Source: Candidatus Geohabitans tengchongensis
GTDB taxonomy: Bacteria > Sysuimicrobiota > Sysuimicrobiia > Sysuimicrobiales > Humicultoraceae
Length of the DNA stretch: 64,000 bases
Direction of reading: 5' to 3'
Assembly (NCBI GenBank): GCA_031459625.1
Contig: JAVKIH010000008.1
Location: 18,359 to 82,358, forward strand
Positions within the stretch are counted from its first letter, which is position 1; every line of letters starts with the position of its first letter. Of the stretch, positions 12,278 to 28,418 are shown one piece after another. The position numbers were made by a program, and so were the translations under genes. Under the pieces are notes generated by a model that was given only the letters and a program-made list of their open reading frames with translations, was not told the DNA's origin and searched no databases.

Positions 12278-12706
12278 GTGAGCGACACGGCCGCCTACGT
12301 GGCGTCGCTGCGGAAGGTCCCGCTCTTCGCCGGGCTCACCGCGGAGGAGCTGAGCCTCATCGCCCGCTCGGTGAAGGAGCGGGTCTACGAGCCCGGGGCC
12401 GTCATCGTCCGCCAGGGGGACCCGGGGGTGGGGTTCTACCTCATCGTCGACGGGCGGGTCGAGGTCACCCACGACGGCCACCGCATCCGGGAGCTGGGCC
12501 CGGGGGAGTTCTTCGGGGAGATGGCCCTCATGGAGGAGCGCGCCCGCACGGCCACGGTCACGGCGCGGGAGCGCACCCGCTGCCTGCAGCTGGTCCGCTG
12601 GGACTTCCGCGCTCTGCTGAAGGAGCACCCCGACCTGGCGGTGCGCCTGCTGGAAGTGGTGGTCCGGCGCCTCCGGGAGCACCCCCTCTCGCGCGAGCAG
12701 GAGTAG
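12278..12706 (+). CDS. Cyclic nucleotide-binding domain protein
   Basis: GTG start; LRKVPLFAGLTAEELSLIA...GEFFGEMALME...RTATVTA is a cNMP-binding (Crp-type effector) domain with no HTH. Confidence 0.7.
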   Translation: MSDTAAYVASLRKVPLFAGLTAEELSLIARSVKERVYEPGAVIVRQGDPGVGFYLIVDGRVEVTHDGHRIRELGPGEFFGEMALMEERARTATVTARERTRCLQLVRWDFRALLKEHPDLAVRLLEVVVRRLREHPLSREQE

Positions 12707-12755
12707 CCCCGCCGACCCGCGCCCTCACGCCACGTCGGGTCGGCTCACGCACCAT

Positions 12756-12784
12756 TTGACGAGCTCCGCGCGGTTCGCTACCAT
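12756..12784 (+). promoter_or_regulatory. Putative sigma-70-type promoter for the IclR gene
   Basis: TTGACG, 17 nt spacer, TACCAT, ~28 nt upstream of the ATG at 12812. Confidence 0.3.
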
Positions 12785-12811
12785 ACTCCAAATTCAGAAT
12801 CCTCTTCCGCC

Positions 12812-13663
12812 ATGCGAAATGGACACCCGGCCCCGCGACTGAACGGCGCTCGCGCCCTGGAGAAGGGCGTGCGCCTCCTCCTGCTCCTGGCGTCCCGCGA
12901 CGGCCCGCAGCCCCTCTCCGCGCTGGCCCTCCGCGGCGGGCTCCCGCCCAGTACGGCCCACCGCCTGCTGGCCACCCTGGTCCGCCTGGGCGTCGTGGAG
13001 CAGGAGCCGGAGACGCGGCGCTACCGGATCGGTCCGCGCACGGTGGCCTTCGCCGCCGACGTCCTGCAGCAGACCGACCTGACGCGGGAGGCGGCGCCGG
13101 TCCTCCACGCGTACGTGCGGGAGACCGGCGAGGCGATCTCCCTGGCCACCCTGCAGGAGGGCGAGGTGGTGCTCCTGGAGCAGGTCCGCGGCGTGGACGC
13201 CCCGCGCCTCTTCCTGCACATCGGCCGCCGGGCCCCGCTCCACAGCACGGCGCTCGGCAAGGTGCTGGCCGCCGGCCTGCCCGACGAGGAGGTGCGGCGG
13301 CTCCTCGGTCAGCGCGGGATGGCCCGGCTGACCCCGCGCACGATCACCTCGCCGCGGCGCTTCCTGGAGCACCTGGCAGAGGTGCGCCACCTCGGCTACG
13401 CCCTCGACGACGAGGAGACGGTGCAGGGCGCCCGCTGCCTGGCCGTCCCCGTCCGCGACCACCGCGGGCGCGTCGTGGCCGCACTCAGCAGTTCCGGGTC
13501 GACCGGCGCCTGGAGCGCCGGGCACATGGCCGCCGTGCGCGAGGCCCTGGTACGCGCCGGCAGCCGCCTGTCCGCGCGGCTCGGCTATCGCCCTGACGGC
13601 GTCGCCGCCGCGGGCGCGCGCGTGCCGGCCGGACCGCCGGGCCCGGGAAGGGAGGGACGATAG
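12812..13663 (+). CDS. IclR family transcriptional regulator
   Basis: N-terminal HTH (LSALALRGGLPPSTAHRLLATL) and C-terminal IclR effector domain (LHSTALGKVLAAGLPDEE, GYALDDEETVQGARCLAVPV). Confidence 0.85.
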   Translation: MRNGHPAPRLNGARALEKGVRLLLLLASRDGPQPLSALALRGGLPPSTAHRLLATLVRLGVVEQEPETRRYRIGPRTVAFAADVLQQTDLTREAAPVLHAYVRETGEAISLATLQEGEVVLLEQVRGVDAPRLFLHIGRRAPLHSTALGKVLAAGLPDEEVRRLLGQRGMARLTPRTITSPRRFLEHLAEVRHLGYALDDEETVQGARCLAVPVRDHRGRVVAALSSSGSTGAWSAGHMAAVREALVRAGSRLSARLGYRPDGVAAAGARVPAGPPGPGREGR

Positions 13664-14737
13664 ATGGCTCGAGTCACATCCACCACCCTCTGGCGGGGAG
13701 CCGCCCTGTGCCTGGTCGGCGTCCTCCTCCTCGGCCTGCTGGTCCTGCCGGCGGCGGTCGCGGCGCCCCGCGTGCGGCTCACGATGTTCATCTGGGCCGG
13801 CGCCAACCAGGGCGTGGTCCCCCGCGAGGTGGTCGCCCGCTACGTGCGGACCCACCCGCACGTCGAGGTGGAGTTCTGGGAGTCCAACAACACGGTGACC
13901 TACCCGCGCATGGTGGCGGCCAAGCAGGCCAACCCCAACAACCCGCTGATCCACTTCGGCTACTTCAACGTCGACGCCAGCAGCCGCGGGGACGTGGACG
14001 ACATGTGGCTGCCGCTCGACCCGGCGCGCATCCCCAACATGCGGGCGGTGCACGCCAGCCTGCGGCGCCCCGGGAACCGGGGCATCGGCTACGGGATCAG
14101 CGCCCTCGGGCTGATGTACAACAAGGACCTGGTCAAGGACCCGCCCGACTCGTGGACCGCCCTGTGGGACCCGAAGTGGCGGGGCAAGGTCACCTTCTTC
14201 GACAACAACTTCTTCCCCCTGGTGCTGGCGGCGCGGCTCAACGGCGGCTCCGAGCGGAACATCGACCCCGGGTTCCGGATCTGGGCCGAGAACGCCAAGA
14301 ACATCCGTGCCCTGGTGACCAGCAACGACCAGCTGAAGAACATGCTGGTGAGCGGCGAGGCCCTCCTGGCCCCCTGGTTCACCAGCATCTGGGCCTTCTG
14401 GGCGGCGGAGGGGGCCCCCCTCGGCTTCGTCAACCCCAAGGAGGGTGTGATCGCCTTCCCCATCTACCTCCAGATCGTCAAGGGCAGCACCCCCGAGCAG
14501 GTGCGGGTGGCCGAGGAGATCATCAACGAGCTGCTCGCCACCGAGAACAACGCCCGCTACGCCCGGCTGACCTACAGCATCCCGGCGATCCCCGGGGCGC
14601 CGCTGTCGCCGACCGTGGAGAAGATCCTCAACCCCCGCCTGCTCGACACGGCCATCTGGCTCGACTGGGCGACCATGGCGCAGCAGGCCAGCGTGTGGCG
14701 GCAGCGCTGGGAGCGCGAGGTGAAGTCCCGGCTGTAG
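13664..14737 (+). CDS. ABC transporter substrate-binding protein, PotD/PotF-like
   Basis: Signal peptide, then PotD-family body (YPRMVAAKQANPNNPLIHFGYFNVD, GISALGLMYNKDLV, WDPKWRGKVTFFDN). Confidence 0.8.
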   Translation: MARVTSTTLWRGAALCLVGVLLLGLLVLPAAVAAPRVRLTMFIWAGANQGVVPREVVARYVRTHPHVEVEFWESNNTVTYPRMVAAKQANPNNPLIHFGYFNVDASSRGDVDDMWLPLDPARIPNMRAVHASLRRPGNRGIGYGISALGLMYNKDLVKDPPDSWTALWDPKWRGKVTFFDNNFFPLVLAARLNGGSERNIDPGFRIWAENAKNIRALVTSNDQLKNMLVSGEALLAPWFTSIWAFWAAEGAPLGFVNPKEGVIAFPIYLQIVKGSTPEQVRVAEEIINELLATENNARYARLTYSIPAIPGAPLSPTVEKILNPRLLDTAIWLDWATMAQQASVWRQRWEREVKSRL

Positions 14738-14821
14738 GCCGGCGGAGGCAGGGCGCCGCGCCCGGGGGCGCGGTGGGGAAGCAGAGCGCCGCGCCCCCGG
14801 GGGCGCGGCGGGGAGGCAGGC

Positions 14822-16021
14822 GTGGACGCACAGGGAGCGGGAGTCCCGGCCGTCGAGGTGCGGGGGGTCACCAAGCGCTTCGGCGCCCTGGTGGCCGTGT
14901 GCGAGGTCTCGTTCGCCGTGGCCGAGGGGGAGTTCTTCTCCCTGCTGGGGCCCTCCGGGTGCGGCAAGACGACCACCCTGCGCCTCATCGGCGGGTTCGA
15001 GCTGCCCGACGCCGGCGAGGTCTGCATCGGCGGCCGGCCCATGGGCCGGACCCCGCCCAACCGCCGGGAGACGAACATGGTCTTCCAGCGCCTGGCCCTC
15101 TTCCCCCACTACACGGTCTACGAGAACGTCGCCTTTGGCCTGCGGATGCGGCGGGTCCCCGAGCGGGAGGTGCGGCGGCGGGTGGGCGAGGCGCTGGAGC
15201 TCGTGCGCCTGGAGGGGCTGGGGCCCCGCCGGGTGACGGAGCTCTCCGGCGGCCAGCAGCAGCGCGTGGCGCTGGCCCGCGCCCTCGTGACCCGCCCGCG
15301 CGTCCTCCTGCTGGACGAACCCCTCAGCTCGCTCGACCTCAAGCTGCGCCTGCAGATGCAGGAGGAGCTCAAGCGCCTGCAGCGCGAGGTGGGCACGACG
15401 TTCATCTACGTCACCCACGACCAGGGCGAGGCGCTGGCGATGAGCGACCGCGTCGGGGTCATGGCCGGCGGTCGCCTCTACCAGGTGGGCGACCCCCTGG
15501 AGATCTACGAGCGCCCCCGCACGCGCTTCGTCGCCGGCTTCATCGGGGATGCCAACCTCCTGGACGGTGTCGTGGAGGCGCTGGGGCCGACGTGGGTGAC
15601 GCTGCGCGTCGACGGGGTGCGCGTCCAGGGACGCCGCGGCGGGTGGGAGGCGGTGGGGCGACGGGCGACGCTGTGCCTGCGCCCCGAGCGCGTGCGGGTG
15701 GAGTCGCGGCCGCCGGTCGGCGGTGGCGCGCTGCGCGGCCGCGTGGAGGACCGGGCGTTCAGCGGGCACGTCGTGCGGTACCGGCTGCACGTCGGGCCGC
15801 TGCGGCTGCAGGCGACCCTGCCCTACGTGGCCGGGATGCCGCTCCACGCCCCCGGCGACGAGGTGTGGGCCACGTGGGACCCGGCGCAGGCGGTGACGGT
15901 GCCGCCCGACGATGAGGCGGGGGCGACGGTGGAGGCAGCAGGCCGGGTGCCCGGGCGCGCGGCCGCCCTGACCCGGTCCGAGGTCGCGGTGCCCGCCGCC
16001 CTGAGGGAGGGAAGGGGATGA
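14822..16021 (+). CDS. ABC transporter ATP-binding protein, PotA-like (with C-terminal TOBE-like domain)
   Basis: Walker A GPSGCGKTT, ABC signature LSGGQQQRVALARAL, Walker B LLLDEPLSSLD, H-loop YVTHDQ. Confidence 0.85.
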   Translation: MDAQGAGVPAVEVRGVTKRFGALVAVCEVSFAVAEGEFFSLLGPSGCGKTTTLRLIGGFELPDAGEVCIGGRPMGRTPPNRRETNMVFQRLALFPHYTVYENVAFGLRMRRVPEREVRRRVGEALELVRLEGLGPRRVTELSGGQQQRVALARALVTRPRVLLLDEPLSSLDLKLRLQMQEELKRLQREVGTTFIYVTHDQGEALAMSDRVGVMAGGRLYQVGDPLEIYERPRTRFVAGFIGDANLLDGVVEALGPTWVTLRVDGVRVQGRRGGWEAVGRRATLCLRPERVRVESRPPVGGGALRGRVEDRAFSGHVVRYRLHVGPLRLQATLPYVAGMPLHAPGDEVWATWDPAQAVTVPPDDEAGATVEAAGRVPGRAAALTRSEVAVPAALREGRG

Positions 16022-17004
16022 GGCGCACGCTGGACGTGGGCGGCGTCGCCGCCCTGCCGGGCACGCGCGCCCTGGGGGATGTCGTGGCCGGCGAGCTGCC
16101 GGACGGCACCCCGGTGCGGTTGCCGCTCCTGGTGCTCAACGGCGCCGACGACGGGCCGATCCTCTGGCTGGGCGCGGGCCTCCACGGCACGGAGGTCCCG
16201 GGCATGGAGGTGATCCGGCGGGTCGTGCGGGAGGCGGTCGACCCCGCCCGGCTGCGGGGCGCGGTCGTGGCCGCCCCGCTGCTCAACCCCTTCAGCTTCC
16301 ACCAGCACCAGATGCTCACCCCCCAGGACGGCTACAACCTCAACCGCGTCTTCCCCGGCGACCCCGAGATGCTCCTCAGCCACCGGCTCGCCGCCCTCAT
16401 CGCCCGGCTGGCGGCGGGGTGCGACGCCTACCTGGACTTCCACGCCAACCCCACCCCGGCGATGGAGTTCAGCATCATCCGCCATCCCGGCGACGAGGCG
16501 CTCTGGCGGCGCAGCCGCGCCCTGGCGGAGGCGTTCGGGATCACCACCATCGAGATGGCCCCCGTGCACGAGCGCCACCGCACCGGGACCTTCACCGACA
16601 TGGTGCAGGGGTGGGGGAAGCCCTGCCTGGTGCTGGAGCTGCTGGCCTGGCGGCGCGTGGACCCGCGCTCGCTCCAGACCGGCGTGCGCGGCACGCTCAA
16701 CGTCATGCGCCACCTGGGGATGCTCGACGGCGCGCCGGAGCCGCAGGTGGACGTTCCGGTGATCCCCGGCCCCCTCTCCCGGATCGAGCTCACCGCCAAC
16801 CGGGGCGGGCTGGTCCACCCCCTGCGGGACCCGGGGACGGCGGTGCGCGAGGGCGAGGTCATCGGGCTGATCCGGAATCCCTGGGGGGACGTGGTGGAGG
16901 AGGTTTGCAGCCCGCGGGACGGCTGGATTCTCGCCTGGCCACTGCTGGGGACCCAGGCGGTGGCCACCGGCGACATCCTCACCTTCATCGCCTTCCGGCC
17001 GTGA
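16018..17004 (+). CDS. Succinylglutamate desuccinylase/aspartoacylase (AstE/AspA) family zinc hydrolase
   Basis: LWLGAGLHGTEVPG (H-x-x-E zinc site), YLDFHAN, and overall M14-like AstE_AspA architecture. Embedded between the ATPase and the permeases of the Pot-like operon, with a 4-nt overlap. Confidence 0.65.
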   Translation: MRRTLDVGGVAALPGTRALGDVVAGELPDGTPVRLPLLVLNGADDGPILWLGAGLHGTEVPGMEVIRRVVREAVDPARLRGAVVAAPLLNPFSFHQHQMLTPQDGYNLNRVFPGDPEMLLSHRLAALIARLAAGCDAYLDFHANPTPAMEFSIIRHPGDEALWRRSRALAEAFGITTIEMAPVHERHRTGTFTDMVQGWGKPCLVLELLAWRRVDPRSLQTGVRGTLNVMRHLGMLDGAPEPQVDVPVIPGPLSRIELTANRGGLVHPLRDPGTAVREGEVIGLIRNPWGDVVEEVCSPRDGWILAWPLLGTQAVATGDILTFIAFRP

Positions 17005-17066
17005 GGGGCTGAGGCGGTCTCCCGGCCGTGAGGGGCTGAGGCGGTGTCCGGGGTGGCAGGCGCGCG

Positions 17067-17915
17067 ATGAGGCTCCGGGGGCCCCTGGCGATGGCGTTCC
17101 TCGCCCCGGCGCTGCTCGTCATGGCCGGGCTCTACGCCGTGCCGCTGGGCGTCTACCTGGTGAACAGCTTCCATCGCTTCGAGGCCGGGCGGATCCTCCC
17201 GGGCTGGACGTGGGAGACCTACGCGGCGTTCTTCACCGACCCGTTCGCCTATCGGGTCATCGGCCAGTCCCTCCGCCTGGCCGTCCTGGTCACGGGGCTG
17301 GCTCTGCTGCTGGGCTACCCGCTCGCCTACGCGCTGCACACCCGGGTGCGCCGCCCGGGCAGCCGCGCGGCGGTGGCGCTCCTCCTCTTCTCGCCGCTGG
17401 TGGTCAGCGTCGTGGTCCGGACCTACGGGTGGTTCATCCTCCTGGCCACCCGGGGGCTGGTGAACACGGCGCTGCGGGCGTCGGGCCTGGTCGACACGCC
17501 CCTGCCGCTGCTGTTCAACCTGCGCGGCGTGGTGGTCAGCCTGACCCACATCCTGCTGCCGTTTGCCGTCTTCCCCATCTACAGCGTGCTGGTCCGGCTG
17601 GACACCACGCTGAAGGACGCCGCCCGCGACCTGGGCGCCGGCCCCTGGGCGACCTTCACGCACATCACGCTGCCCCTGACCATGCCGGGGGTCGTCGCCG
17701 CGGCGTTGATCTGCTTCACGCTGGCCCTCAGCAGCTTCGTGACGCCGCAGCTGCTGGGCGGGGGGCGCGTCCAGGTCCTGCCGCTCGTGGTCTACCAGAG
17801 CACGGTGGAGATCAACTGGCCGCTGGGAGCCGTGGCCGGCCTCACCCTGCTCGTCCTGTCCCTCGCCGCCGTCTGGACCCTCAACGGCCTGCTGCGACGG
17901 CTGCCGAGCGTGTGA
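17067..17915 (+). CDS. ABC transporter permease, PotB-like
   Basis: 6-TM permease with EAA-like loop DAARDLGAGPWATFTHITLP. Confidence 0.85.
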   Translation: MRLRGPLAMAFLAPALLVMAGLYAVPLGVYLVNSFHRFEAGRILPGWTWETYAAFFTDPFAYRVIGQSLRLAVLVTGLALLLGYPLAYALHTRVRRPGSRAAVALLLFSPLVVSVVVRTYGWFILLATRGLVNTALRASGLVDTPLPLLFNLRGVVVSLTHILLPFAVFPIYSVLVRLDTTLKDAARDLGAGPWATFTHITLPLTMPGVVAAALICFTLALSSFVTPQLLGGGRVQVLPLVVYQSTVEINWPLGAVAGLTLLVLSLAAVWTLNGLLRRLPSV

Positions 17916-17934
17916 GGGCCGGGAGGTACCGGGG

Positions 17935-18783
17935 ATGAGCGTGCTGGCGCAGGACCTGCGGGCGGCGTCCCGGGAGGAGCGCGCCGAGGCGGTGCGCACG
18001 CTGGTGCTCCGGGCGGGCCTGGCCCTGGGCGTCGGGTTCGTCCTCCTGCCGCTGGCGATCGTGGTCGTCTACTCCTTCAGCAGCGTCGCCTACGGGGTCT
18101 TCCCGCCGCCGGGGCTGTCGCTCCGCTGGTACGGCCACCTCCTCGCCCAGGAGGCGTTCCGGGGCGCTTTCCTGCGCAGCGTGGGGATCGGGGTGTGCGC
18201 CACCGCGCTCGCCCTGGCCGTGGGGCTGCCCGCCGCCGTCGTGCTGGTGCGGGCGCGCTTCCCCGGCCGCGACCTGCTGCGTGCCTTCCTCCTCTCGCCC
18301 ATCGTCATGCCGAAGATCGTGCTCGGGGTGGGGTGGTTCATCTTCTTCGCCCGTCTGGGGCTGGAGGGGGGCGTGGGCCCCCTCGTCCTCGCCCACACCG
18401 TCGTCGTGCTGCCCTTCGTGGTGACGATCCTAGCGGCGAACCTGGTGGGGTTGGACCCCTCGGTGGAGGAGGCGGCCCAGGACCTGGGGGCGGGGGTGGC
18501 GACGGTGCTGTGGCGCATCGTCCTCCCGCAGATCCGCCCGGGGGTGGCGGTGAGCGCCGTGCTCGCCTTCATCGTCTCCTTCGATCAGGTGGAGAGCTCG
18601 ATCTTCTTGACCCGCGGCGCCAACAACACGCTGCCGGTCGAGATGTTCCTCTACATGGAGAAGTGGCAGGACCCGACCATCGCTGCGCTCTCCACGGTGC
18701 TGATCGGGTTCGCTGCGGCCCTGGTGGCGGCGGGCCTGGTCCTGGCGCGAGGCGCCGACCTGCGCCGGCTGCTGGGGCGCTGA
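17935..18783 (+). CDS. ABC transporter permease, PotC-like
   Basis: 6-TM permease with EAA loop EEAAQDLGAGVATVLWRIVLPQIRPG. Confidence 0.85.
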   Translation: MSVLAQDLRAASREERAEAVRTLVLRAGLALGVGFVLLPLAIVVVYSFSSVAYGVFPPPGLSLRWYGHLLAQEAFRGAFLRSVGIGVCATALALAVGLPAAVVLVRARFPGRDLLRAFLLSPIVMPKIVLGVGWFIFFARLGLEGGVGPLVLAHTVVVLPFVVTILAANLVGLDPSVEEAAQDLGAGVATVLWRIVLPQIRPGVAVSAVLAFIVSFDQVESSIFLTRGANNTLPVEMFLYMEKWQDPTIAALSTVLIGFAAALVAAGLVLARGADLRRLLGR

Positions 18784-18798
18784 CGGGGCACGCGGGCG

Positions 18799-19152
18799 GT
18801 GGGCGCGAACGAGGGGACGATGCCCGGGCGCACGGTGGAGTGGTTGGAGGTGAGCCGGCTCGCCAGTGGGATGCTCCTGCGCGTCCCGGTCTGGACGGTC
18901 CGGGGCACGGGCGCCGGGCCCGCCCTGGGCGTAACGGCGGCCATCCATGGCGATGAGATCGTCGGCATCGAGGTGGTCCGCCGCCTGCTCGACCGCCTGG
19001 AGCGGACGCCCTTCCGGGGGATGGTCCGGGCGGTGCCGGTGGCAACCCGCTGGCCCCCATCCTCTTCGTCTTTGCCTATGCCTTCAGCAGCGTCTCCTAC
19101 GCCGTCTTCCCGCCGCCGGGGTTCTCCCTGCGCTGGTTCGAGCGCCTCCTGA
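18799..19152 (+). pseudogene. Remnant: N-terminal ~82 codons of a second AstE/AspA-family gene
   Basis: VPVWTVRGTGAGPALGVTAAIHGDEIVGIEVVRRLLDRLER...VRAVPVA parallels residues ~35-90 of the intact copy at 16018. Similarity stops at ~19045 and the frame runs into unrelated sequence. Confidence 0.5.
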
Positions 19153-19799
19153 CCCAGCACGACCTGCTGCGGGCGGCGCTGAACTCCCTGCTCGTGGCGG
19201 CGGCGGCCACGGCCGGGAGTCTGGGGCTGGGGACCCTGGCCGCCCTGGGACTGGTGCGCTACCGCTTCGCCGGCCGGGAGGTGCTGCGCGCGGTCTTCCT
19301 GGCGCCGCTCATCGTGCCGCGGATCGCCTTCGGCGTAGCCATCATGGTCTACATGATCCTCCTGCGCCGCTTCGGCGGGCTGGACAGCCTCGTCCTGGCC
19401 CACCTGATGGTGACGCTGCCGTTCGCCATCTCGATCCTCTCGGCCAGCCTGGTGAGCGCGGAGCGGGTCCTGGAGGAAGCGGCCATGGACCTGGGAGTGA
19501 CGCCGCTGCAGACCTTCCTGCGGGTGACGCTGCCGCAGATCCGCACGGGGCTGGCCGTCAGCGCCTTCTTCGCCTTCATCATCTCCTGGGACCAGGTGGA
19601 GACCTCGCTCTTCCTCGTGAAGACCGACAACGTCACGCTGCCGGTGGCCATGTTCTACTACATCCAGCGCCACCAGGACCCGGTGATCGCCGCCCTCTCC
19701 ACCGTGCTGATCGCCGCGGCGGCCGTGGCCGGCGCGGCGGCGGTGGCCGCCACCGACCCCCGCGACCTCTCCCGCCTGCTGGGCGCCCGCGGGCGGTGA
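19046..19799 (+). pseudogene. Remnant: PotC-like permease paralog lacking its N-terminus and start codon
   Basis: From ~19046 the frame reads LAPILFVFAYAFSSVSYAVFPPPGFSLRW... through EAAMDLGVTPLQTFLRVTLPQIR, colinear with the intact PotC-like protein from its residue ~37. The frame opens at 18957 with no ATG/GTG/TTG before the GTG at 19194. Confidence 0.55.
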
Positions 19800-19979
19800 G
19801 CCGACCCACACCGGGACCAGCAGCCGGTCCAGATCGTCCCGGTGGATCCGCACCGGCCGGCCCAGCCGGATGGCCGGAAGCCGTCCCTGCCGGACGTAGG
19901 CGTACACCGTGAGGCGGTGGAGCTGCAGGTAGGCGGCCGCCTGCCGGACCGTGAGGAGCTCGGGCAGCTCGCGACGCAT
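19800..19979 (-). CDS. Excisionase/MerR-type helix-turn-helix DNA-binding ORF (probably 3' truncated)
   Basis: MRRELPELLTVRQAAAYLQLHRLTVYAYVRQGRLPAIRLGRPVRIHRDDLDRLL is an excisionase-family HTH. The frame has no stop and continues antisense through the potC-like remnant (ORF 18651..20051), so only the first ~60 codons are credible. Confidence 0.4.
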
Positions 19980-20176
19980 GCCGCCATGGTGGCAGAGCCC
20001 GCGGCGAGGATGGAGTGATGCGGCGCATCCCCGGCCGGTGACTGCGGTCACAGCCTTCCGCGGCCGCCGCCGGGAGCGTGTTTGGCGGCGAGGGGGAGGT
20101 GGCGGCGTGGAGGGTGAAAACCCCCTTCGAGGGCGGTCTGCCCCCAGACCGCGTCCGGCATCACGGAGGAGGTCCC

Positions 20177-21163
20177 ATGGCCCGACCCAAGGTCTACGTC
20201 ACGCGGCCGCTCCCCGAGCCCGCCCTGGCCCTCATCCGGGAGCGGACGGAGATGCGCCTGTGGGAGCAGGACGAGATCCCCCCGCCCCGCGACGTCCTGC
20301 TGCGCGAGGTCGCCGACGTCGACGGGCTGCTCGCCCTGCTCACCGACCGCATCGACGAGGAGCTGCTCGCGCGCGCCCCCCGCCTGCGTGTGGTGGCCAA
20401 CTATGCCGTCGGCTTCGACAACGTGGACGTGGCGGCGGCCACGCGGCGCGGCGTCGTCGTCACGAACACCCCGGGGGTCCTCACCGAGACCGTGGCGGAC
20501 TTCGCCATGGCCATGATCCTGGCGGCGGCGCGGCGCCTGGTCGAGGCCGACCGCTACACCCGCAGCAACCTGTGGCGCTCCTGGCAGCCGATGCTCTTCC
20601 TGGGGCAGGACGTGCACGGCGCCACCCTGGGGCTCGTCGGGCTGGGGCGGATCGGCAGCGCCGTGGCCCGGCGTGCCCGCGGCTTCGACATGCGCGTCCT
20701 CTACTACGACGTGGTGCGCCGGGAGGACCTGGAGCGGGAGATGGGCATCGTCTTCCGCCCCCTGGAGGAGGTGCTGCGCGAGAGCGACTTCATCAGCATC
20801 CACACGCCGCTGACTCCCGAGACCCGCCACCTCATCGGCCGCCAGCAGCTGCGGATGATGAAGCCGACGGCGGTGCTGGTGAACACGGCCCGCGGGCCCA
20901 TCGTCGACACCATGGCGCTGTACGAGGCCCTGCGCGACGGCGTCATCTGGGCGGCGGCCCTGGACGTCTTCGAGGTGGAGCCGGTCCCCCCGGACCACCC
21001 GCTGCTCACGCTCGACAACGTCACCGTCGCCCCGCACATCGCCAGCGCCTCGGTGCGGACGCGCACGCAGATGGCGCTCATGGCCGCGGAGAACCTGCTG
21101 GCGGTGCTGGAGGGGCGGCGGCCCCCCAATCCCGTCAACCCTGAGGTCCTGGAAGGACGGTAG
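20177..21163 (+). CDS. D-2-hydroxyacid dehydrogenase (glyoxylate/hydroxypyruvate reductase-like)
   Basis: NAD motif [16 protein letters not shown], catalytic region TARGPIVD and HIASAS. RBS GGAGGAGG before the ATG. Confidence 0.85.
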
Positions 21164-21167
21164 GGGG

Positions 21168-22175
21168 ATGGCCCTCCTCTACCTGGGGATGGAGGACGCC
21201 GTGGTGGTCGTCCGGGAGGGGAGGTCTGGGTGGGCCGTCGAGGAGCGCCTCACCGGCCAGCCGGTCCAGGGCGTGGCGGCGGACCCGCAGGATCCTGTGC
21301 GGGTCTACGCAGCCACCGCCGAGGGGCTGTGGCGCAGCGCCGACGGCGGCCGCACCTGGGAACGCGCGGCGGCCCCGGGACTGGACGACGTCACCGCGGT
21401 GGCGGTGGCTCCGGCCCACGACGGCGGTCCCGGCCCCGTGTACGCCGGCACCGAGCCGAGCCGCCTCTTCCGCTCCGACGACGGCGGGGTCACCTGGCGG
21501 GAGCTGCGCGGGCTTGTGGCCCTGCCCTCGGCCCGGACCTGGAGCTTCCCGCCTCGTCCGAAGACCCACCACGTCCGCTGGATCGCCCCCGACCCGGCGC
21601 GGCCGGGGCGCCTCTACGTGGCCATCGAGGCCGGGGCCCTGGTGCACTCCGCCGACGGCGGGGAGACCTGGCACGACCGCGTCCCCGGCGGGCCCTACGA
21701 CACCCACACGCTGGCCGTCCACCCCCACGCGCCCGACCGCCTCTACTCCGCGGCGGGGGACGGCTACTTCGAGAGCCTGGACGGCGGCGCGTCGTGGCGT
21801 TCACCCGAGGAGGGCCTGCGCCACGGCTACCTCTTCGGCGTCGCCGCGGATCCGGGCGATCCCGAGACCGTGGTGGTCTCGGCGGCGGCGGGACCGGGGA
21901 GTGCGTACGTGGCCGGGCGGGCGACCACCTACCTCTACCGGTGGCAGGGCCAGGGCCCGTGGGCGCTCCTCCGGGAGGGGCTGCCGGAGGCGCGCCGCAC
22001 CACGATCACGGTGCTGGCCACCCACCCGCAGGCACCCGGGGTGGTCTACGCCGCCAACAACCGGGGGATCTTCCGCTCGCGCGACGGGGGAGCGCGGTGG
22101 ACGGCGCTCGAGCTCCCCTGGCCGGCGCGCTTCCAGGACCACGCCGTCCAGGGGGTGGTGGTGATCGAGCCCTAG
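21168..22175 (+). CDS. BNR/Asp-box repeat beta-propeller protein (sialidase-like / Ycf48-like)
   Basis: Multiple S-x-D-G-G-x-T-W Asp-box repeats (SADGGRTWE, SDDGGVTWR, SADGGETWH, SLDGGASWR, SRDGGARWT). Confidence 0.6.
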   Translation: MALLYLGMEDAVVVVREGRSGWAVEERLTGQPVQGVAADPQDPVRVYAATAEGLWRSADGGRTWERAAAPGLDDVTAVAVAPAHDGGPGPVYAGTEPSRLFRSDDGGVTWRELRGLVALPSARTWSFPPRPKTHHVRWIAPDPARPGRLYVAIEAGALVHSADGGETWHDRVPGGPYDTHTLAVHPHAPDRLYSAAGDGYFESLDGGASWRSPEEGLRHGYLFGVAADPGDPETVVVSAAAGPGSAYVAGRATTYLYRWQGQGPWALLREGLPEARRTTITVLATHPQAPGVVYAANNRGIFRSRDGGARWTALELPWPARFQDHAVQGVVVIEP

Positions 22176-22270
22176 TGCGGGTGCTCCGTCTCGCCGCGGC
22201 GCGTCGCGGACCTCCCGCCGGGGGCCGGGGCCGCGGGCCCGCCGGGCGCGGCTCGCGACGGCCAGAGAGA

Positions 22271-22304
22271 GCGCAGGGCGCCGGAAGCTCCCGGCGCCCT
22301 GCGC
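22271..22304. terminator. Bidirectional hairpin between convergent genes
   Basis: gcgcagggcgccgg-aagctc-ccggcgccctgcgc: perfect 14-bp stem, 6-nt loop, between the BNR gene (+) and the family-5 binding-protein gene (-). No clear U-tract. Confidence 0.4.
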
Positions 22305-22324
22305 GAGTCGACGGGCGACGTCCC

Positions 22325-23908
22325 CTACTGCTTGCCGATCGTCCAGGTGCGGAACTGCATGTCCGGGCTCAGCTGGATGCCGGTGACGTTCTTCTGCGCG
22401 ACCGCGAAGGCCTGCAGGTTGTTCGTCCACATCGGCACCAGGATGGCCGACTCGGCCAGCAGCCGCTGGGTCTGCTGGTAGAGCTGGGTGCGCCGAGCCC
22501 GGTCGGTGGTCTGCTTGGCCTCGGTGAGGAGCTGGCGGAACTGCTGCGCGTACTGCTTGTCCCGCGCGCTGGTGGCCTTGTTGAGGAAGGTGCCCAGGCT
22601 CTCCGGCGACTCGATGAGCCAGGGGGCCAGGAAGTTGTCGGGGTCGACGAAGTCCGGGAACCACCCCAGGAAGAACATGCCGAACTGCCCGGCGGCCATC
22701 GACTTCGTGTAGGTGGCCCACTCCTGCGTCTTGATCTCCACCGTGGCCAGGCCCGTCTCCTCGATGGCCCGCTTCACCACCGCGCCCGCGTCCGGCTCGG
22801 TGTTACCGTAGCGGACCGGGGTGAGCCACAGGGTGAGGGCGAGCTTGCGGCCGGAGCTGTAGCCGGCCTCGCGCAGCAGCGCCCGGGCCTGCTCCAGGTT
22901 GCGGCGCGGGAAGGCCTCCACGTGGCTCCACAGCCCTGGCGGCACCATGCTGTAGAGCGCAGTGTTGAGGCCGCCGAAGACGTTGCGCACGATGCGGTCG
23001 CGGTCCAGCGCCAGCGCCACGGCGCGGCGGACGCGGACGTCGTCGAAGGGTTTCACCGTGACGTTGAAGACGATGTAGCGCACCGAGAGGCTGGGGCCGC
23101 GGATGACGGTCACCCGGGGGCTCTGCTGCAGCCGCCGCAGGTCCTCCGGGTTGAAGGTGCGGAACCCGACGTCCACCTGCCCCGACTCGACGGCGGCGGC
23201 CAGGGCCGAGGCGTCGGCCAGGAAGACGGTGATGACCCGACGGCTCTTGGGGGCGGGGCCCCAGTAGCCGCGGTAGGCCTCGTAGACCGTCCGCTGGTCC
23301 GGCACGTACTGGGCCAGCCGGTACGGTCCGGTGCCGGCGAAGCGCCCCTTGGCGAACTCGTTGGCCGGGGTGGAGCGGGGGCTGAAGACGTGGGCGGGCG
23401 CCACCCCGTGGGTCATGCGCGCCAGGAAGGTGGCGTCCCGCTCGCGCAGCCGGATGCGCACCGTCGTGGCGTCGACGACCTCGACGGGCAAGCGGATGTT
23501 CTTGATCAGCCCGACGCCGCCCTCGGGGCCGTCCAGCTTGAGGGCGCGCTCCAGCGAGAACTTCACGGCCGCGGCGTCGAAGGGTGTCCCGTCGGTGAAC
23601 GTCACCCCGCGGCGCAGCTTGAAGGTGTAGGTGAGCCCGTCATCGGAGACCTGCCAGGACTCCGCCAGCTGCCCCACGATGTCCGTGGTCCCGGGTTTGA
23701 ACTGCACGAGCGCCTCCGAGACCTGCGCGAAGACGTGCCAGGTCCAGTAGTCGTAGGAGTTCTCCGGAGAGAGCTCGGTGATCTTGTCGGTGGTTCCCAG
23801 GACCAGCGTGTCGCGCGGCGTGGCTGCGGGCGCCCGGGACGCCGGCGCCCCCAGGACGACCACGAGCCCCGCCACCAGCAGGACGGCACACAGGCGTGAT
23901 GCGGTCAT
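22325..23908 (-). CDS. ABC transporter substrate-binding protein, family 5 (peptide/nickel, DppA/OppA-like)
   Basis: Signal peptide MTASRLCAVLLVAGLVVVLGAPASRA; family-5 SBP length (527 aa) and motifs (TFKLRRGVTFTDGTPFDAAAVKFSLER). Confidence 0.85.
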   Translation of the reverse strand: MTASRLCAVLLVAGLVVVLGAPASRAPAATPRDTLVLGTTDKITELSPENSYDYWTWHVFAQVSEALVQFKPGTTDIVGQLAESWQVSDDGLTYTFKLRRGVTFTDGTPFDAAAVKFSLERALKLDGPEGGVGLIKNIRLPVEVVDATTVRIRLRERDATFLARMTHGVAPAHVFSPRSTPANEFAKGRFAGTGPYRLAQYVPDQRTVYEAYRGYWGPAPKSRRVITVFLADASALAAAVESGQVDVGFRTFNPEDLRRLQQSPRVTVIRGPSLSVRYIVFNVTVKPFDDVRVRRAVALALDRDRIVRNVFGGLNTALYSMVPPGLWSHVEAFPRRNLEQARALLREAGYSSGRKLALTLWLTPVRYGNTEPDAGAVVKRAIEETGLATVEIKTQEWATYTKSMAAGQFGMFFLGWFPDFVDPDNFLAPWLIESPESLGTFLNKATSARDKQYAQQFRQLLTEAKQTTDRARRTQLYQQTQRLLAESAILVPMWTNNLQAFAVAQKNVTGIQLSPDMQFRTWTIGKQ

Positions 23909-23988
23909 GCCTCACCCCCCGTGGTTGGGATCGCTTCTCCCGGTAGCGATTTCAGTGTAGCGCAGGGGGCATCCTGCCGCGCAGCGAC

Positions 23989-24864
23989 CTACTCGACGGC
24001 GCGGCGCCGGCGGGGGCTGAGCCGGTCGGCCAGCCCTTCCCCCAGCATCCCGAACCCCAGGGAGAGGAGGATGATCATCAGGCCGGGGAAGGTAATGAGC
24101 CACCAGTAGCCCGCCTGCAGGAACTTCTGGCCGTTCTGGATGTCGAAGCCCCAGTCCGGCGTGGGAGGCGGCAGCCCGAAGCCCAGGAAGGCCAGCGCCG
24201 CTTCGGTGAGGATGGCGTCGGCGATGTTGAAGGAAGGGACGGTCATCACCGCGCTCAGGGTGTTGGGGGCGATGTGCCGCAGGAGCACGCGGCTGCCGGA
24301 GGCCCCCACCGCCCGCGCCGCCTCGACGAACTCCTGCTCCCGCACCACCAGCACCTGCGCCCGCGCCACCCGGAAGTAGGCCGGGACGTAGACGAAGGCG
24401 ATGGCCGCCGTCATGTTGGTCAGCCCCGGGCCCAGCATGGCCACGATGGCGATGGCCAGGATGAGGGCGGGGAAGGAGTAGATCGCGTCCATCACCAGGG
24501 AGAGGACCCGATCCAGCCCGCCGCCGGCGGCCCCGGCCACCCACCCGAGCGCCGTCCCCGCGCTCAGCGAGATGGCCACCGAGAGCGCCGCCACCAGGAG
24601 CGGGACGCGCCCCCCGTACAGCACCCGGCTCAGCACGTCGCGCTGCAGCTGGTCCGTCCCCATGGGGTGGGCCGGCGACGGGGGCTGGAGGCGGTCCGCG
24701 CCCGTCGGGGCCGTGGGGTCGTAGGGGGCCAGGACGGGGGCGGCCAGCGTCACCAGCACCACCAGGGCGACGATGGCCGCGCCGCCCACGAGCAGGTACC
24801 CGCGGCGGACCGGGTGGCGCACGCGGCGGCCCGGGGGCACCGGCGCGCGGCGGACCCGGCGCAT
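23989..24864 (-). CDS. ABC transporter permease, DppC-like
   Basis: C-terminal 291 codons of ORF 23989..26610; EAA loop VEAARAVGASGSRVLLRHIAPN. ATG overlaps the dppB-like stop. Confidence 0.85.
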   Translation of the reverse strand: MRRVRRAPVPPGRRVRHPVRRGYLLVGGAAIVALVVLVTLAAPVLAPYDPTAPTGADRLQPPSPAHPMGTDQLQRDVLSRVLYGGRVPLLVAALSVAISLSAGTALGWVAGAAGGGLDRVLSLVMDAIYSFPALILAIAIVAMLGPGLTNMTAAIAFVYVPAYFRVARAQVLVVREQEFVEAARAVGASGSRVLLRHIAPNTLSAVMTVPSFNIADAILTEAALAFLGFGLPPPTPDWGFDIQNGQKFLQAGYWWLITFPGLMIILLSLGFGMLGEGLADRLSPRRRRAVE

Positions 24865-25874
24865 CAGAAGCGGATGCGCGGGTCCACCCGGGCGTAGAGG
24901 ACGTCCACCGCCAGGTTGACCGCCGAGATGAACAGCGCGATGAAGACCACGGCGCCCTGGATGGCGGCGAAGTCTCGCGAGGAGATCGCCTCCAGCAGGT
25001 AGCGGGCCACCCCGGGCCAGGAGTAGACCGTCTCGGTGAGGATGGCCCCGGCCATCAGCAGGGCGAACTGGAGCCCCACCACCGTGACGATGGGGATGAG
25101 GGCGTTGCGCAGGGCGTGGCGGCGGACCACCACCGGCTCGGGCAACCCCTTGGCCCGGGCCACGGTGACGTACTCGCGCTCCAGCACCTCCAGCATGCTC
25201 GTGCGGGTCATCCGCCCGATGAACCCCGACACGACCAGCCCGAGCGTGAGCGTCGGGAGCACCAGGTGGCGCAGGGCGCCGAGAAACAGGCGCAGGTCCC
25301 CGCGCAGCAGCGTGTCCACCGTGTAGAGGTGGGTGATCGGCTCGAAGAAGGCGGCGGCCACCGGGTCCAGGCGGCCCCCCGCCGGCAGCACCCGCCAGCG
25401 CACCGCGAAGAGCATCAGCAGCATGAGCCCGATCCAGAAGACGGGCATGGCGAAGGAGGCGATGTTGAACAGGCGGACCAGGTGGTCGGCGGGGCGGTCG
25501 CGGCGGACCGCGGCCACGAGGCCCGTCCCCACCCCGATGGCGGTGGCGGCGAGCATGCCGAAGACCGCCAGCTCCAGCGTGGCCGGAAGGCGCAGCAGCA
25601 GCTCCTGGGTCACCGGGAGCCCGGTGCGGACGGAGGTGCCGAAGTCCAGTCGGGCCACGTCGCCGAGGTAGTCCAGGTACTGCACCGGCAGGGGGCGGTC
25701 GAGCCCGAGCTGGGCGCGGCACCGTGCCAGGGTCTCCAGGGTGACGTTGCGCCCGCCCAGCAGCGCCAGGCACGGGTCGCCCGGCAACACCCGCAGGATG
25801 ACGAAGACGACCGTGAGCAGCACCAGCAGCATAGGCAGGGTGAGGGCCAGGCGGGTGAGGATGTAGCGCAGCAC
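24864..25874 (-). CDS. ABC transporter permease, DppB-like
   Basis: MLRYILTRLALTLPMLLVLLTVVFVILRVLPGDP is the canonical DppB/OppB N-terminus; EAA loop present. Confidence 0.85.
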   Translation of the reverse strand: MLRYILTRLALTLPMLLVLLTVVFVILRVLPGDPCLALLGGRNVTLETLARCRAQLGLDRPLPVQYLDYLGDVARLDFGTSVRTGLPVTQELLLRLPATLELAVFGMLAATAIGVGTGLVAAVRRDRPADHLVRLFNIASFAMPVFWIGLMLLMLFAVRWRVLPAGGRLDPVAAAFFEPITHLYTVDTLLRGDLRLFLGALRHLVLPTLTLGLVVSGFIGRMTRTSMLEVLEREYVTVARAKGLPEPVVVRRHALRNALIPIVTVVGLQFALLMAGAILTETVYSWPGVARYLLEAISSRDFAAIQGAVVFIALFISAVNLAVDVLYARVDPRIRF

Positions 25875-25877
25875 CGC

Positions 25878-28343: not shown

Positions 28344-28418
28344 GGGCGCTTAGCTCAGAGGTAGAGCGCCTCTCTGACGCAGAGGAGGTCGGAGGTTCAA
28401 GTCCTCCAGCGCCCACCA
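28344..28418 (+). tRNA. tRNA-Val (anticodon GAC)
   Basis: Hand-folded cloverleaf: acceptor GGGCGCT/AGCGCCC, D arm GCTC-AGAGGTA-GAGC, anticodon arm CCTCT-CTGACGC-AGAGG (U33, anticodon GAC), variable loop AGGTC, T arm GGAGG-TTCAAGT-CCTCC, discriminator A, encoded CCA. 75 nt. Confidence 0.9.

What the first reader, a model, noticed from the sequence alone, without database searches (positions are those of the whole stretch)
18799..19979. Decayed partial duplicate of the upstream AstE-potB-potC segment fused at a single deletion junction, next to an orphan excisionase-type HTH
Directly after the intact Pot-like operon (potD-like, potA-like, AstE/AspA-like, potB-like, potC-like; 13664-18783) there is a diverged second copy of the AstE/AspA-like N-terminus (~82 codons). 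At ~19045 (...VRAVPVA | (N)PLAPILFVFAYAF...) it joins the middle of a diverged PotC-like permease (from its residue ~37 to its natural stop). In the intact copy these two points are ~1.8 kb apart. That indicates an internal deletion removing the rest of the hydrolase, a whole PotB-like gene and the PotC start. The fused frame has no start codon before GTG 19194. Abutting it on the other strand is a 60-codon excisionase/MerR-type HTH ORF that has no stop and reads on antisense into the permease remnant. The 1.2 kb therefore looks like a scar of duplication, deletion and possibly mobile-element activity. Alternatively it is an assembly mis-join.
Basis: seen in the sequence. Interest (0 to 1): 0.55.

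Follow-up and report, generated by a model that had tools for sequence, protein, structure and literature searches.

The report
Deletion scar of a second transporter operon
This 1.2 kb stretch is what remains of a second nutrient-uptake operon after one roughly 4 kb deletion in a hot-spring bacterium; it is an ordinary dead-gene scar, and close relatives still carry the operon whole.

Summary
Window 18799-19043 is the N-terminus of an AstE/AspA-type deacylase, and it runs at about 19048-19055 into a PotC-like permease that lacks its first ~39 codons. A no-stop HTH_17 ORF sits antisense next to it.

The fragments are not a decayed copy of the upstream genes (35% and 51% aa identity). They are the two ends of a separate paralogous operon, AstE2-SBP2-ATPase2-PotB2-PotC2. 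That operon is intact at exactly this position in relatives that are ~96% identical in DNA (L003-L006). The permease remnant is 95-96% aa identical to their PotC2.

Relative to L003 the window lacks 3,982 bp. The junction lies in a 5-8 nt microhomology (CGCTGGCC). The fusion would be in frame, but one base is missing 4 nt upstream.

A sister lineage (L011/L035/L036) lost the same operon through a different deletion, so the two losses are independent.

A mis-assembly is unlikely. The same truncated gene is on 11 contigs, and a contig assembled from the study's metatranscriptome run matches across the junction at 100%.

The HTH ORF has no integrase or att sites near it. It sits at the edge of a block that more distant relatives lack.

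The source is a Sysuimicrobiota (CSP1-3) MAG, genus SpSt-190. Overall this is ordinary gene loss and of low interest.

The parts
13664..18783 (+). Intact operon 1 (SBP1, ATPase1, AstE1, PotB1, PotC1). It is the old paralogue of the lost operon, not its parent.
   Evidence: Pfam hits. Operon 1 is 97.5-99.1% aa identical to L003 with dN/dS 0.06-0.24. Operon 1 versus operon 2 proteins within L003 are only 37-57% identical.
18799..19043 (+). AstE2 remnant: the GTG start plus 81 codons and 2 nt of an AstE/AspA-family deacylase gene. The gene is 321 aa in L003.
   Evidence: PF24827 at E 6.7e-7, profile positions 2-43 of 192. The region aligns to L003 at 96% nt as part of one continuous match, L003 1-6138 = window 12879-19055. 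It is 97.4% aa identical to L003 AstE2.
19043..19044 (+). Site of a 1-nt deletion. The window reads GGC-AAC where L003, L007 and L009 read GGCCAAC or GGCGAAT. It shifts the deacylase frame 4 nt before the junction.
   Evidence: Alignment A1 and the sequence print-out. The AstE2 frame then runs out of frame to a stop at 19152, giving the 117-aa ORF.
19048..19055 (+). Junction of the 3,982-bp deletion. The 8 nt CGCTGGCC align to both parental sites: AstE2 codons 83-85 and PotC2 codons 38-40 of L003.
   Evidence: The two blastn segments overlap: L003 ...6138 = window ...19055 and L003 10113... = window 19048.... The parental sites read CCCTGGCC and CGCTGGCG. In L007 and L009 the AstE2 site reads CCGCTGGC.
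19056..19799 (+). PotC2 remnant: codons ~41-287 plus the stop of the second permease gene. The first transmembrane region is missing, and the first start codon in frame is GTG 19194.
   Evidence: 93% nt to L003 10113-10910. 96%/95% aa to the full-length proteins P0001 and P0002 by BLASTP (codon alignment gives 95.2% to L003). PF00528 hit. The alignment with three full-length orthologues shows the missing N-terminus.
19194..19799 (+). 201-aa ORF that annotators call 'ABC transporter permease subunit'. It is a truncated gene call inside the remnant.
   Evidence: protein accessions MDQ7827983.1 and others; seen on 11 contigs.
19800..19979 (-). HTH_17 / excisionase-family DNA-binding domain ORF, starting at ATG 19979. 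It has no stop codon and reads on antisense through the permease remnant to 18651.
   Evidence: PF12728 at E 6.6e-16. TIGR01764 at 60.5 bits against a cut-off of 28.8. ORF 18651-20051 on the minus strand. The only close homologue is the same ORF in L011 (P0121, 89% aa).
19847..20090 (.). 244-nt segment holding the HTH start, its first 44 codons and the upstream DNA. It is present in the window and L011 and absent from L003-L006.
   Evidence: blastn gap between L003 10910 and 10912. L011 aligns straight through it. L003 keeps ...GTCCACCGGGACGACCTG (VHRDDL) at the breakpoint, which suggests L003 lost the segment.
12707..20173 (.). Block IclR + operon 1 + operon 2 remnant + HTH. It is absent from more distant relatives, where the cNMP-binding gene directly abuts the 2-hydroxyacid dehydrogenase gene.
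   Evidence: Gene orders of L031-L034. blastn: L034 3212-3587 = window 12309-12684, and then L034 3670-4649 = window 20174-21153.

Best explanation
Window 18799-19799 is a dead remnant of a second ABC-importer operon, AstE2-SBP2-ATPase2-PotB2-PotC2. In close relatives that operon lies intact between operon 1 and the 2-hydroxyacid dehydrogenase gene.

In this lineage one 3,982-bp deletion was resolved within a 5-8 nt microhomology (CGCTGGC[C]). It removed the last three quarters of AstE2, all of SBP2, ATPase2 and PotB2, and the first ~39 codons of PotC2. The deletion on its own would give an in-frame AstE2(1-85)::PotC2(40-287) chimera. One base missing 4 nt upstream breaks that frame.

Nothing functional should remain. 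No binding protein, ATPase or partner permease is left, the permease piece lacks its N-terminal membrane segment and a start codon, and the deacylase piece covers less than a quarter of its catalytic domain.

The deletion mechanism is inferred, not shown. Short-homology illegitimate recombination or replication slippage, independent of any element, is the most likely cause.

The loss is recent, because the remnants show almost no extra decay. The operon appears dispensable, because a sister lineage deleted it independently.

The adjacent HTH_17 ORF is an orphan excisionase-family DNA-binding gene at the edge of the block. It has a complete domain and no natural stop. It is probably decaying or at best a small regulator. 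Its long tail is an antisense shadow frame, as is typical of 73% GC DNA.
For: Shown:
- L003, L004 and L005 have the same genes in the same order as the window on both sides, and they hold the five-gene operon 2.
- blastn gives L003 1-6138 = window 12879-19055 at 96.0% and L003 10113-10910 = window 19048-19846 at 93.1%. That is 3,982 bp missing, with an 8-nt overlap of the two segments.
- The frame arithmetic shows an in-frame junction and a separate 1-nt loss.
- The permease remnant's best hits are full-length proteins of 96%, 95% and 85% identity. Its identity to the upstream PotC1 is 51%.
- Operon 2 is intact in three lineages at different distances: L003, L007/L008 and L009. The window state is therefore the derived one.
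- L011, L035 and L036 (95.5% nt identical to the window) have different breakpoints. AstE2 codon ~13 is joined to the last ~13 codons of PotB2, with further 37-nt and 202-nt deletions inside PotC2. They keep PotC2 codons 1-37, which the window lacks, and lack AstE2 codons 14-82, which the window keeps.
- Reality of the junction. The truncated 201-aa product is on 11 contigs, with four NCBI protein accessions.
- Logan contig L002, assembled from SRR27732999, is 100% identical over window 18654-25992. The source paper lists that run as the metatranscriptome.
- No integrase, recombinase or transposase domain is among the called genes within about 10 kb on either side in the window type, L003 or L011.
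Against: - No reads were available, so coverage across the junction and possible coexistence with an intact allele in the same spring are untested.
- Signs of relaxed selection on the remnants are weak. dN/dS is 0.16-0.19. The window branch has 6 nonsynonymous and 12 synonymous changes against 2 and 6 on the L003 branch.
- The GC-to-AT synonymous bias first seen in the remnant turned out to be lineage-wide.
- The microhomology is short, with 5 nt exact in L003 and 7-8 nt depending on the ancestral base. The mechanism is therefore an inference.
- The direction of the 244-nt HTH difference rests on a 6-residue relic and on the Pfam match spanning the breakpoint. No outgroup supports it.
- The MAG is about 89% complete, so an intact copy of operon 2 elsewhere in the genome cannot be excluded.
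Confidence: 0.9

Rival explanations
1. A partial tandem duplicate of the upstream AstE-potB-potC segment diverged by decay and then lost ~1.8 kb.
For: The fragments are homologous to the upstream genes, 35% and 51% aa identity. Direct repeats of 75-83% nt lie 1,007 nt apart.
Against: - Intact orthologues 95-97% identical sit at the same position in relatives.
- The parent operon has a different gene order and includes SBP2 and ATPase2.
- The missing DNA is 3,982 bp.
- The remnant keeps an open frame over 251 codons with dN/dS 0.16, which is not neutral decay from the upstream copy.
- Operon 2 also occurs alone in another family (L007).
Confidence: 0.02
2. Assembly mis-join: a chimeric contig joins two unrelated places.
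For: The source is a metagenome-assembled genome. The NCBI MAG copy of this region (L001) has two breaks or overlaps elsewhere in it.
Against: - The two sides share only 5-8 nt, far below any assembler k-mer, so there is no repeat to collapse.
- The same truncated gene is on 11 contigs and in several MAG protein records.
- A Logan assembly of a different library (SRR27732999) gives the identical junction.
- Both flanks are collinear with L003 and L011 for more than 6 kb each.
Confidence: 0.02
3. Mobile-element scar. An integrative element marked by the excisionase-type HTH sat here, and its integration or imprecise excision removed the operon core.
For: - The HTH_17/TIGR01764 domain lies at the right edge of a block that outgroups lack.
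- Both lineages that lost operon 2 carry the full HTH, while the lineage with the intact operon lacks its 5' part.
- Operon 2 shows signs of transfer between families.
- The HTH has distant similarity (43%) to mycobacteriophage excisionases.
Against: - The deletion end points lie 750 nt or more from the HTH, and the PotC2 3' part separates them.
- The two deletions have different end points, each with microhomology, which does not look site-specific.
- There is no integrase, transposase or nearby tRNA gene; the only tRNA is at 28344.
- No flanking direct repeat was found.
- The nearest single-domain homologues whose contigs were read (P0151, P0159; 57-58% identity) lie among ordinary chromosomal genes.
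Confidence: 0.05
4. The chimera is functional. The fused AstE2-PotC2 frame would be expressed by ribosomal frameshifting, or the 201-aa permease piece would work with operon 1.
For: The large deletion is in frame. The region appears in an assembly of the run the paper lists as the metatranscriptome. The permease piece has low dN/dS.
Against: - No slippery-site motif was searched for. Rfam found no RNA family in 17500-21500.
- The piece lacks the first membrane segment and its partner proteins.
- The sister lineage L011 has further out-of-frame deletions of 37 and 202 nt in the same gene, so the gene is not being maintained.
- The low dN/dS is expected if the loss is recent.
Confidence: 0.01

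Closest known systems
Deletion-derived pseudogenes formed by short-homology (illegitimate) recombination in bacteria
   Same: There is a single junction within a few shared bases. Truncated ends of two genes that are far apart in relatives are joined. A small frame-breaking lesion lies beside the junction. Related lineages have lost the same locus independently.
   Different: Nothing essential differs. This is a new instance in an uncultured hot-spring phylum, and the mechanism is inferred from the junction sequence only.
PotABCD-type ABC importer (E. coli spermidine/putrescine system)
   Same: The intact form in relatives has one ATPase with a TOBE domain, two BPD_transp_1 permeases and a periplasmic binding protein of the SBP_bac_6/8 type.
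   Different: The binding proteins score 21-25 bits against the PotD equivalog, whose cut-off is 582. The operon carries an AstE/AspA-family deacylase, so the substrate is probably an N-acylated compound rather than free polyamine. In the window only a 5'-truncated PotC-like piece is left.
AstE/AspA zinc deacylase family (succinylglutamate desuccinylase, aspartoacylase, DoeB)
   Same: The N-terminal catalytic-domain signature is present, including the conserved ...HGDE... region (PF24827). The nearest NCBIfam model is DoeB.
   Different: The scores, 66-75 bits, are far below the DoeB equivalog cut-off of 403. The window copy stops after about 85 residues.
Excisionase-family HTH proteins (PF12728 / TIGR01764; phage and ICE Xis proteins, and the small regulator BldC)
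   Same: There is a complete domain of about 47 residues, above the curated cut-offs.
   Different: There is no integrase partner, no att sites and no own stop codon. The BldC and MAD1 models score below their cut-offs. The closest phage and plasmid relatives are only 42-57% identical.

Membership tests
Deletion-derived pseudogene remnant | An intact orthologue at the same syntenic position in close relatives | tested here: met
   L003, L004 and L005 carry AstE2-SBP2-ATPase2-PotB2-PotC2 between PotC1 and the 2-hydroxyacid dehydrogenase gene. The flanks are 94-97% nt identical.
Deletion-derived pseudogene remnant | Fragments truncated relative to full-length family members, with a broken frame or no start codon | tested here: met
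   About 85 of 321 codons of AstE2 are kept, and PotC2 lacks its first ~39 codons. There is a 1-nt loss at 19043/19044, and the first start codon in the permease frame is 19194.
Deletion-derived pseudogene remnant | Relaxed selection on the remnant | tested here: inconclusive
   dN/dS is 0.16-0.19 against 0.05-0.24 in the neighbours. The branch counts are small. The GC-to-AT bias is lineage-wide. L011 does show further deletions in the same gene.
Tandem duplicate of the upstream AstE-potB-potC segment | The upstream copy is the closest relative of the remnant | tested here: not met
   Identity to the upstream genes is 51% and 35%. Identity to operon 2 proteins of relatives is 95-97%.
Tandem duplicate of the upstream AstE-potB-potC segment | The deleted interval corresponds to the upstream gene order (about 1.8 kb) | tested here: not met
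   The parent order is AstE2-SBP2-ATPase2-PotB2-PotC2, and 3,982 bp are missing.
PotABCD spermidine/putrescine importer | The binding protein reaches the PotD equivalog score | tested here: not met
   SBP1 scores 20.7 bits and SBP2 of L003 scores 24.9 bits, against a cut-off of 582.
PotABCD spermidine/putrescine importer | A complete set of ATPase, two permeases and a binding protein | tested here: not met
   This feature fails for operon 2 in the window, where only a 5'-truncated PotC2 remains. It is met in L003, L007 and L009.
AstE/AspA deacylase | A full catalytic domain (PF24827) | tested here: not met
   The remnant covers profile positions 2-43 of 192. The full domain is present in AstE1 and in L003 AstE2.
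Excisionase / recombination directionality factor | An excisionase-family HTH domain | tested here: met
   PF12728 scores 58.7 bits (cut-off 27) and TIGR01764 scores 60.5 bits (cut-off 28.8).
Excisionase / recombination directionality factor | A partner integrase nearby | tested here: not met
   No integrase, recombinase or transposase Pfam family is among the called genes of window 9091-29572 (L001), L003 or L011. The rest of the 64 kb window was not screened.
Excisionase / recombination directionality factor | Flanking att-type direct repeats around an element | tested here: not met
   No direct repeat of 9 nt or more is shared between 12680-12830 and 19795-20180. There is only one 12-nt inverted match, and it is not conserved in L003 or L011.
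Excisionase / recombination directionality factor | Excision activity | not testable with these tools
   This needs an experiment, and the organism is uncultured.

The most novel reading that the evidence does not exclude
The whole block IclR + operon 1 + operon 2 + HTH_17 would be an integrase-less genomic island that has moved within and between Sysuimicrobiota families. The excisionase-type HTH would be its surviving directionality factor or regulator. The repeated, independent deletions in the window, L011 and L007 would be streamlining after transfer.

The evidence does not exclude this:
- The block is absent from outgroups.
- Operon 2 of a different family is 87-96% aa identical to that of L003.
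- That copy still carries a decayed PotC1 tail.
Probability: 0.12. Interest if true: 0.35.

Novelty: new member of a known kind. Interest (0 to 1): 0.15.

Why it matters
The main value is for annotation. The 201-aa 'ABC transporter permease subunit' in the public MAG records (for example MDQ7827983.1) is a pseudogene fragment. The 172-aa and 466-aa minus-strand ORFs are an HTH domain fused to antisense shadow frames.

The locus is also a clean small example of recent, independent loss of a paralogous uptake operon in sister populations of an uncultured hot-spring phylum. All three states, intact and two different deletions, are available for comparison. It does not reveal a new kind of system.

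Tried and rejected
- A GC-to-AT synonymous bias as a sign of pseudogene decay. It was seen in the remnant (6 of 12 changes). The intact operon 1 genes show the same bias on the window branch (15 of 25, against 3 of 28 on the L003 branch). It is lineage-wide, so I rejected it.
- Word-index protein search with the HTH. It found nothing.
- Genome contigs and metagenome-contig scans with the HTH. They returned only distant relatives of 37-53% identity and not the window's own species, so they give no outgroup for the 244-nt difference.
- The C-terminal motif GNP(L/V)(E/D)W(V/I)I(R/K)GL of the 126-141-aa HTH homologues. It is not present in any frame of the window.
- Contexts of two of those homologues (L029, L030). 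They lie among ordinary chromosomal genes, which is uninformative.
- Promoter and terminator scan and Rfam search of the region. Neither found anything.
- tRNA integration site. The only tRNA in the window is at 28344.
- Look-up of the left flank of the L009 block.
- att-like repeats. There is only a 12-nt inverted match, and it is not conserved in the sister lineages.
- Extra HTH copies in the window or the fetched loci. There are none.
Full report
**1. What is in the window**

The DNA is about 73% GC. From 12812 to 18783 there is an IclR-type regulator gene followed by a complete five-gene importer operon, here called operon 1. Its genes are:
- a binding protein at 13664-14737
- an ATPase with a TOBE domain at 14822-16021
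- an AstE/AspA-family deacylase at 16018-17004
- two BPD_transp_1 permeases at 17067-17915 and 17935-18783

Directly after it, 18799-19044 translates to a second deacylase N-terminus. It is 35% identical over 62 aa to the upstream deacylase (E 3e-9) and hits PF24827 profile positions 2-43 of 192.

In another frame, 19044-19799 encodes a permease. It aligns to residues 37-281 of the upstream PotC-like protein at 51% identity (E 1e-74).

The first start codon in that frame is GTG 19194.

On the minus strand, ATG 19979 opens an HTH_17 / TIGR01764 'excise' domain. Its frame has no stop until 18651.

**2. What the fragments come from**

A protein search with the permease remnant returned full-length permeases of 96%, 95% and 85% identity (P0001-P0003). 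That is far closer than the 51% to the upstream copy.

The contigs that encode P0001 (L003, L004, L005) have the same genes in the same order as the window on both sides. Between PotC1 and the 2-hydroxyacid dehydrogenase gene they hold an intact second operon:
- AstE2, 321 aa
- SBP2, 391 aa
- ATPase2, 374 aa
- PotB2, 300 aa
- PotC2, 287 aa

L006, a shorter contig for the same protein, covers the PotB2-PotC2 end and the same right flank.

The same operon is intact in L009, again next to operon 1, and in L007/L008, where it stands alone.

Within L003, operon 1 and operon 2 proteins are only 37-57% identical. They are old paralogues.

The remnants are therefore the two ends of operon 2, not a decayed copy of operon 1.

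**3. The lesion**

blastn gives these matches:
- L003 1-6138 = window 12879-19055, 96.0%
- L003 10113-10910 = window 19048-19846, 93.1%
- L003 10912 onward = window 20091 onward

So 3,982 bp are missing from the window. The two matches overlap by the 8 nt CGCTGGCC. The parental sites read CCCTGGCC in AstE2 and CGCTGGCG in PotC2. The AstE2 site reads CCGCTGGC in L007 and L009. This is a 5-8 nt microhomology.

In L003 coordinates the CTG codon at 6133 (AstE2 Leu84) and the CTG codon at 10115 (PotC2 Leu39) are 3,982 nt apart. The junction is therefore in frame.

The window also lacks one base 4 nt upstream. It reads GGC-AAC where all three relatives have an extra base. This puts the deacylase start in a frame that ends at 19152, giving the 117-aa ORF.

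Whether this 1-nt loss was part of the same repair event or came later cannot be told.

**4. Direction and timing**

Three lineages at different distances have whole AstE2 and PotC2 genes. The window has truncated pieces of each. The window state is therefore a deletion, not an insertion in the others.

Against L003, the remnants have dN/dS of 0.19 (AstE2 piece) and 0.16 (PotC2 piece). The neighbouring live genes range from 0.05 to 0.24.

Polarised with L007 and L009, the window branch of the PotC2 piece has 6 nonsynonymous and 12 synonymous changes. The L003 branch has 2 and 6. This suggests slight relaxation at most, so the loss is recent relative to the ~4% divergence of these lineages.

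A GC-to-AT synonymous bias in the remnant looked like decay at first. The intact operon 1 genes show it too, so it is lineage-wide.

**5. An independent second loss**

An HMMER search with the HTH found one close homologue, P0121, at 89% aa identity. Its contig L011 is 95.5% identical to the window and collinear with it. L035 and L036 are 99.7% identical to L011 in this region.

In L011, AstE2 codon ~13 is joined to the last ~13 codons of PotB2. The junction lies at a C(G/C)GTGG(C) microhomology. PotC2 carries further deletions of 37 nt and 202 nt.

L011 keeps PotC2 codons 1-37, which the window lacks. It lacks AstE2 codons 14-82, which the window keeps. Neither state can be derived from the other, so operon 2 was lost twice.

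This argues that the operon is dispensable in these populations. It also argues that such deletions arise without any site-specific machinery.

**6. Is it an assembly artefact?**

The two sides of the junction share only 5-8 nt, so there is no repeat that an assembler could collapse.

The exact 201-aa truncated product is on 11 contigs and has four NCBI protein accessions.

L002, a Logan assembly of run SRR27732999, is 100% identical to window 18654-25992, which spans the junction. The source paper lists that run as the study's metatranscriptome (PMC11604079).

This suggests that the scar is also transcribed. DNA carry-over cannot be excluded, because the contig spans convergent genes.

Reads themselves could not be examined.

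**7. The HTH ORF**

The domain is complete, matching profile positions 1-47 of 49-51.

The only close relative is the same ORF in the L011 lineage. The next single-domain hits are 54-62% identical. They include proteins of about 70-80 aa and a group of 126-141-aa proteins with a conserved C-terminal motif. That motif is absent from the window. The two homologues of that group whose contigs were read (57-58% identical) lie among ordinary chromosomal genes.

Phage and plasmid relatives are only 42-57% identical.

The 244 nt at 19847-20090 hold the start codon and the first 44 codons. They are absent from L003-L006 and present in L011. L003 retains codons for VHRDDL at the breakpoint, and the Pfam match in the window spans that point. 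L003 therefore most likely lost the segment. No outgroup confirms this.

Between the window and L011, the 55-codon domain has 4 nonsynonymous and 3 synonymous differences. That is about 90% aa identity, against 97-99% for most neighbouring genes between the window and L003.

The missing stop codon has a simple explanation. The ORF runs codon-aligned antisense to a high-GC gene, where stop codons are rare. The PotC2 stop TGA reads as the Ser codon TCA on the HTH strand.

There is no integrase, transposase or nearby tRNA gene, and no flanking direct repeat.

I read this ORF as an orphan, probably decaying, excisionase-family DNA-binding gene. A role as a small regulator is not excluded.

**8. 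Wider context**

More distant relatives (L031-L034, whose 2-hydroxyacid dehydrogenase is 83-86% aa identical) have this gene order: nitroreductase, cNMP-binding protein, 2-hydroxyacid dehydrogenase, SBP_5. In L031-L033 a DUF3307 gene lies between the second and third of these. They have no IclR, operon 1, operon 2 or HTH block. The block at window 12707-20173 is therefore lineage-specific, and the HTH lies at its right edge.

L007/L008 belong to a different family (13-1-40CM-64-14). L009 belongs to the window's own family. Yet operon 2 of L007 is 87-96% aa identical to that of L003, which is closer than L009 at 74-88%.

L007 also carries a decayed PotC1-like tail just upstream of AstE2 (PotC1 residues 214-268, 45% identity, E 1e-6, with stop codons, in AT-richer DNA). 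This points to transfer of operon 2 from a donor that had the operon 1-operon 2 arrangement, followed by loss of operon 1.

The locus as a whole is thus prone to gain and piecemeal loss. That keeps a weak mobile-element reading alive but does not demonstrate one.

**9. Source organism**

The window is 100% identical, over the aligned stretches, to GCA_031459055.1. That is MAG JZ-2_202007_bins_156 from a Tengchong hot spring. It is 88.6% complete and 73.4% GC, and GTDB places it in p__CSP1-3 (Sysuimicrobiota), genus SpSt-190 (supplement of PMC11604079). The supplement's description of Ca. Geohabitans canadensis names the MAG Firmicutes_bacterium_SpSt-190 as its type material, so I take SpSt-190 to correspond to Geohabitans.

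**10. Function of the lost operon (inference only)**

The operon combines an ABC importer with an AstE/AspA-family deacylase. This suggests uptake of an N-acylated amine or amino acid followed by deacylation inside the cell. The IclR regulator gene of the block lies upstream of operon 1.

In L007 the operon lies among gltB, amt and glnA, which hints at nitrogen scavenging.

The binding proteins and deacylases score far below every equivalog cut-off, so no substrate can be named.

**11. Verdict**

This is a real but ordinary deletion scar. Interest is low.

Noticed in passing
L007 4887-5862 (especially 5602-5769): Upstream of the stand-alone operon 2 in a different Sysuimicrobiota family lies a 976-nt stretch with no gene call, lower in GC. 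It holds a decayed PotC1-like C-terminal remnant (45% aa identity, with stop codons). Operon 2 there is 87-96% aa identical to that of L003, closer than the same-family L009. Together these suggest transfer of operon 2 between families, followed by loss of operon 1.
   Followed up: partly
window 12707-20173 and 21164-22327: Relative to the outgroup contigs L031-L034, the whole block IclR + operon 1 + operon 2 + HTH is absent. The BNR/sortilin-like gene (21168-22175) is also absent. That gene is the most diverged one against L003 (90.7% aa, dN/dS 0.22).
   Followed up: partly
window 14750-14819: There is a 35-nt tandem duplication, with each unit containing a GC-rich palindrome (GCGCCCCCGGGGGCGC), in the SBP1-ATPase1 spacer. 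L003 has a single unit. The palindrome is not enriched elsewhere in the window (4 matches against 2.2 expected).
   Followed up: partly
window 16986-17046: A 27-nt spaced direct repeat (CCGGCCGTGAGGGGCTGAGGCGGT) spans the AstE1 stop codon and the spacer before PotB1. It was not compared with relatives.
   Followed up: no
window 12737-12748 and 19796-19807: There is an exact 12-nt inverted match, GGGTCGGCTCAC / GTGAGCCGACCC. One copy lies just after the cNMP-binding gene and the other at the PotC2 stop codon, so they sit near the left edge of the block and beside the HTH near its right end. About 0.03 such matches are expected by chance. It is not conserved in L003 or L011, so it is probably chance.
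   Followed up: partly
window 22176-22317: About 142 nt between the BNR-like gene and the SBP_5 gene are present in the window and absent from L003.
   Followed up: no
L001 3813-3912 and 16393-16490 (window 12903-13105 and 25457-25585): The NCBI MAG contig has two breaks or overlaps relative to the window. They shorten its IclR gene call to 185 aa and split an OppB-like permease into 239 + 139 aa. The window and the contig assembled from SRR27732999 (L002) are continuous there, with a 336-aa gene. These MAG gene calls are scaffolding artefacts, not pseudogenes.
   Followed up: partly
window 13664-19799, against L003 and L009: On the window branch, 15 of 25 polarised synonymous changes in the intact operon 1 genes are GC-to-AT. 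On the L003 branch the figure is 3 of 28. The window lineage seems to be drifting toward lower GC at silent sites.
   Followed up: partly
window 12794-15847 (-), 18651-20051 (-), 21230-23899 (+): There are very long ORFs, up to 1017 aa, antisense to or out of frame with real genes. These are shadow frames typical of 73% GC DNA. The 172-aa and 70-aa proteins in public collections (P0121, P0394) are such calls.
   Followed up: yes
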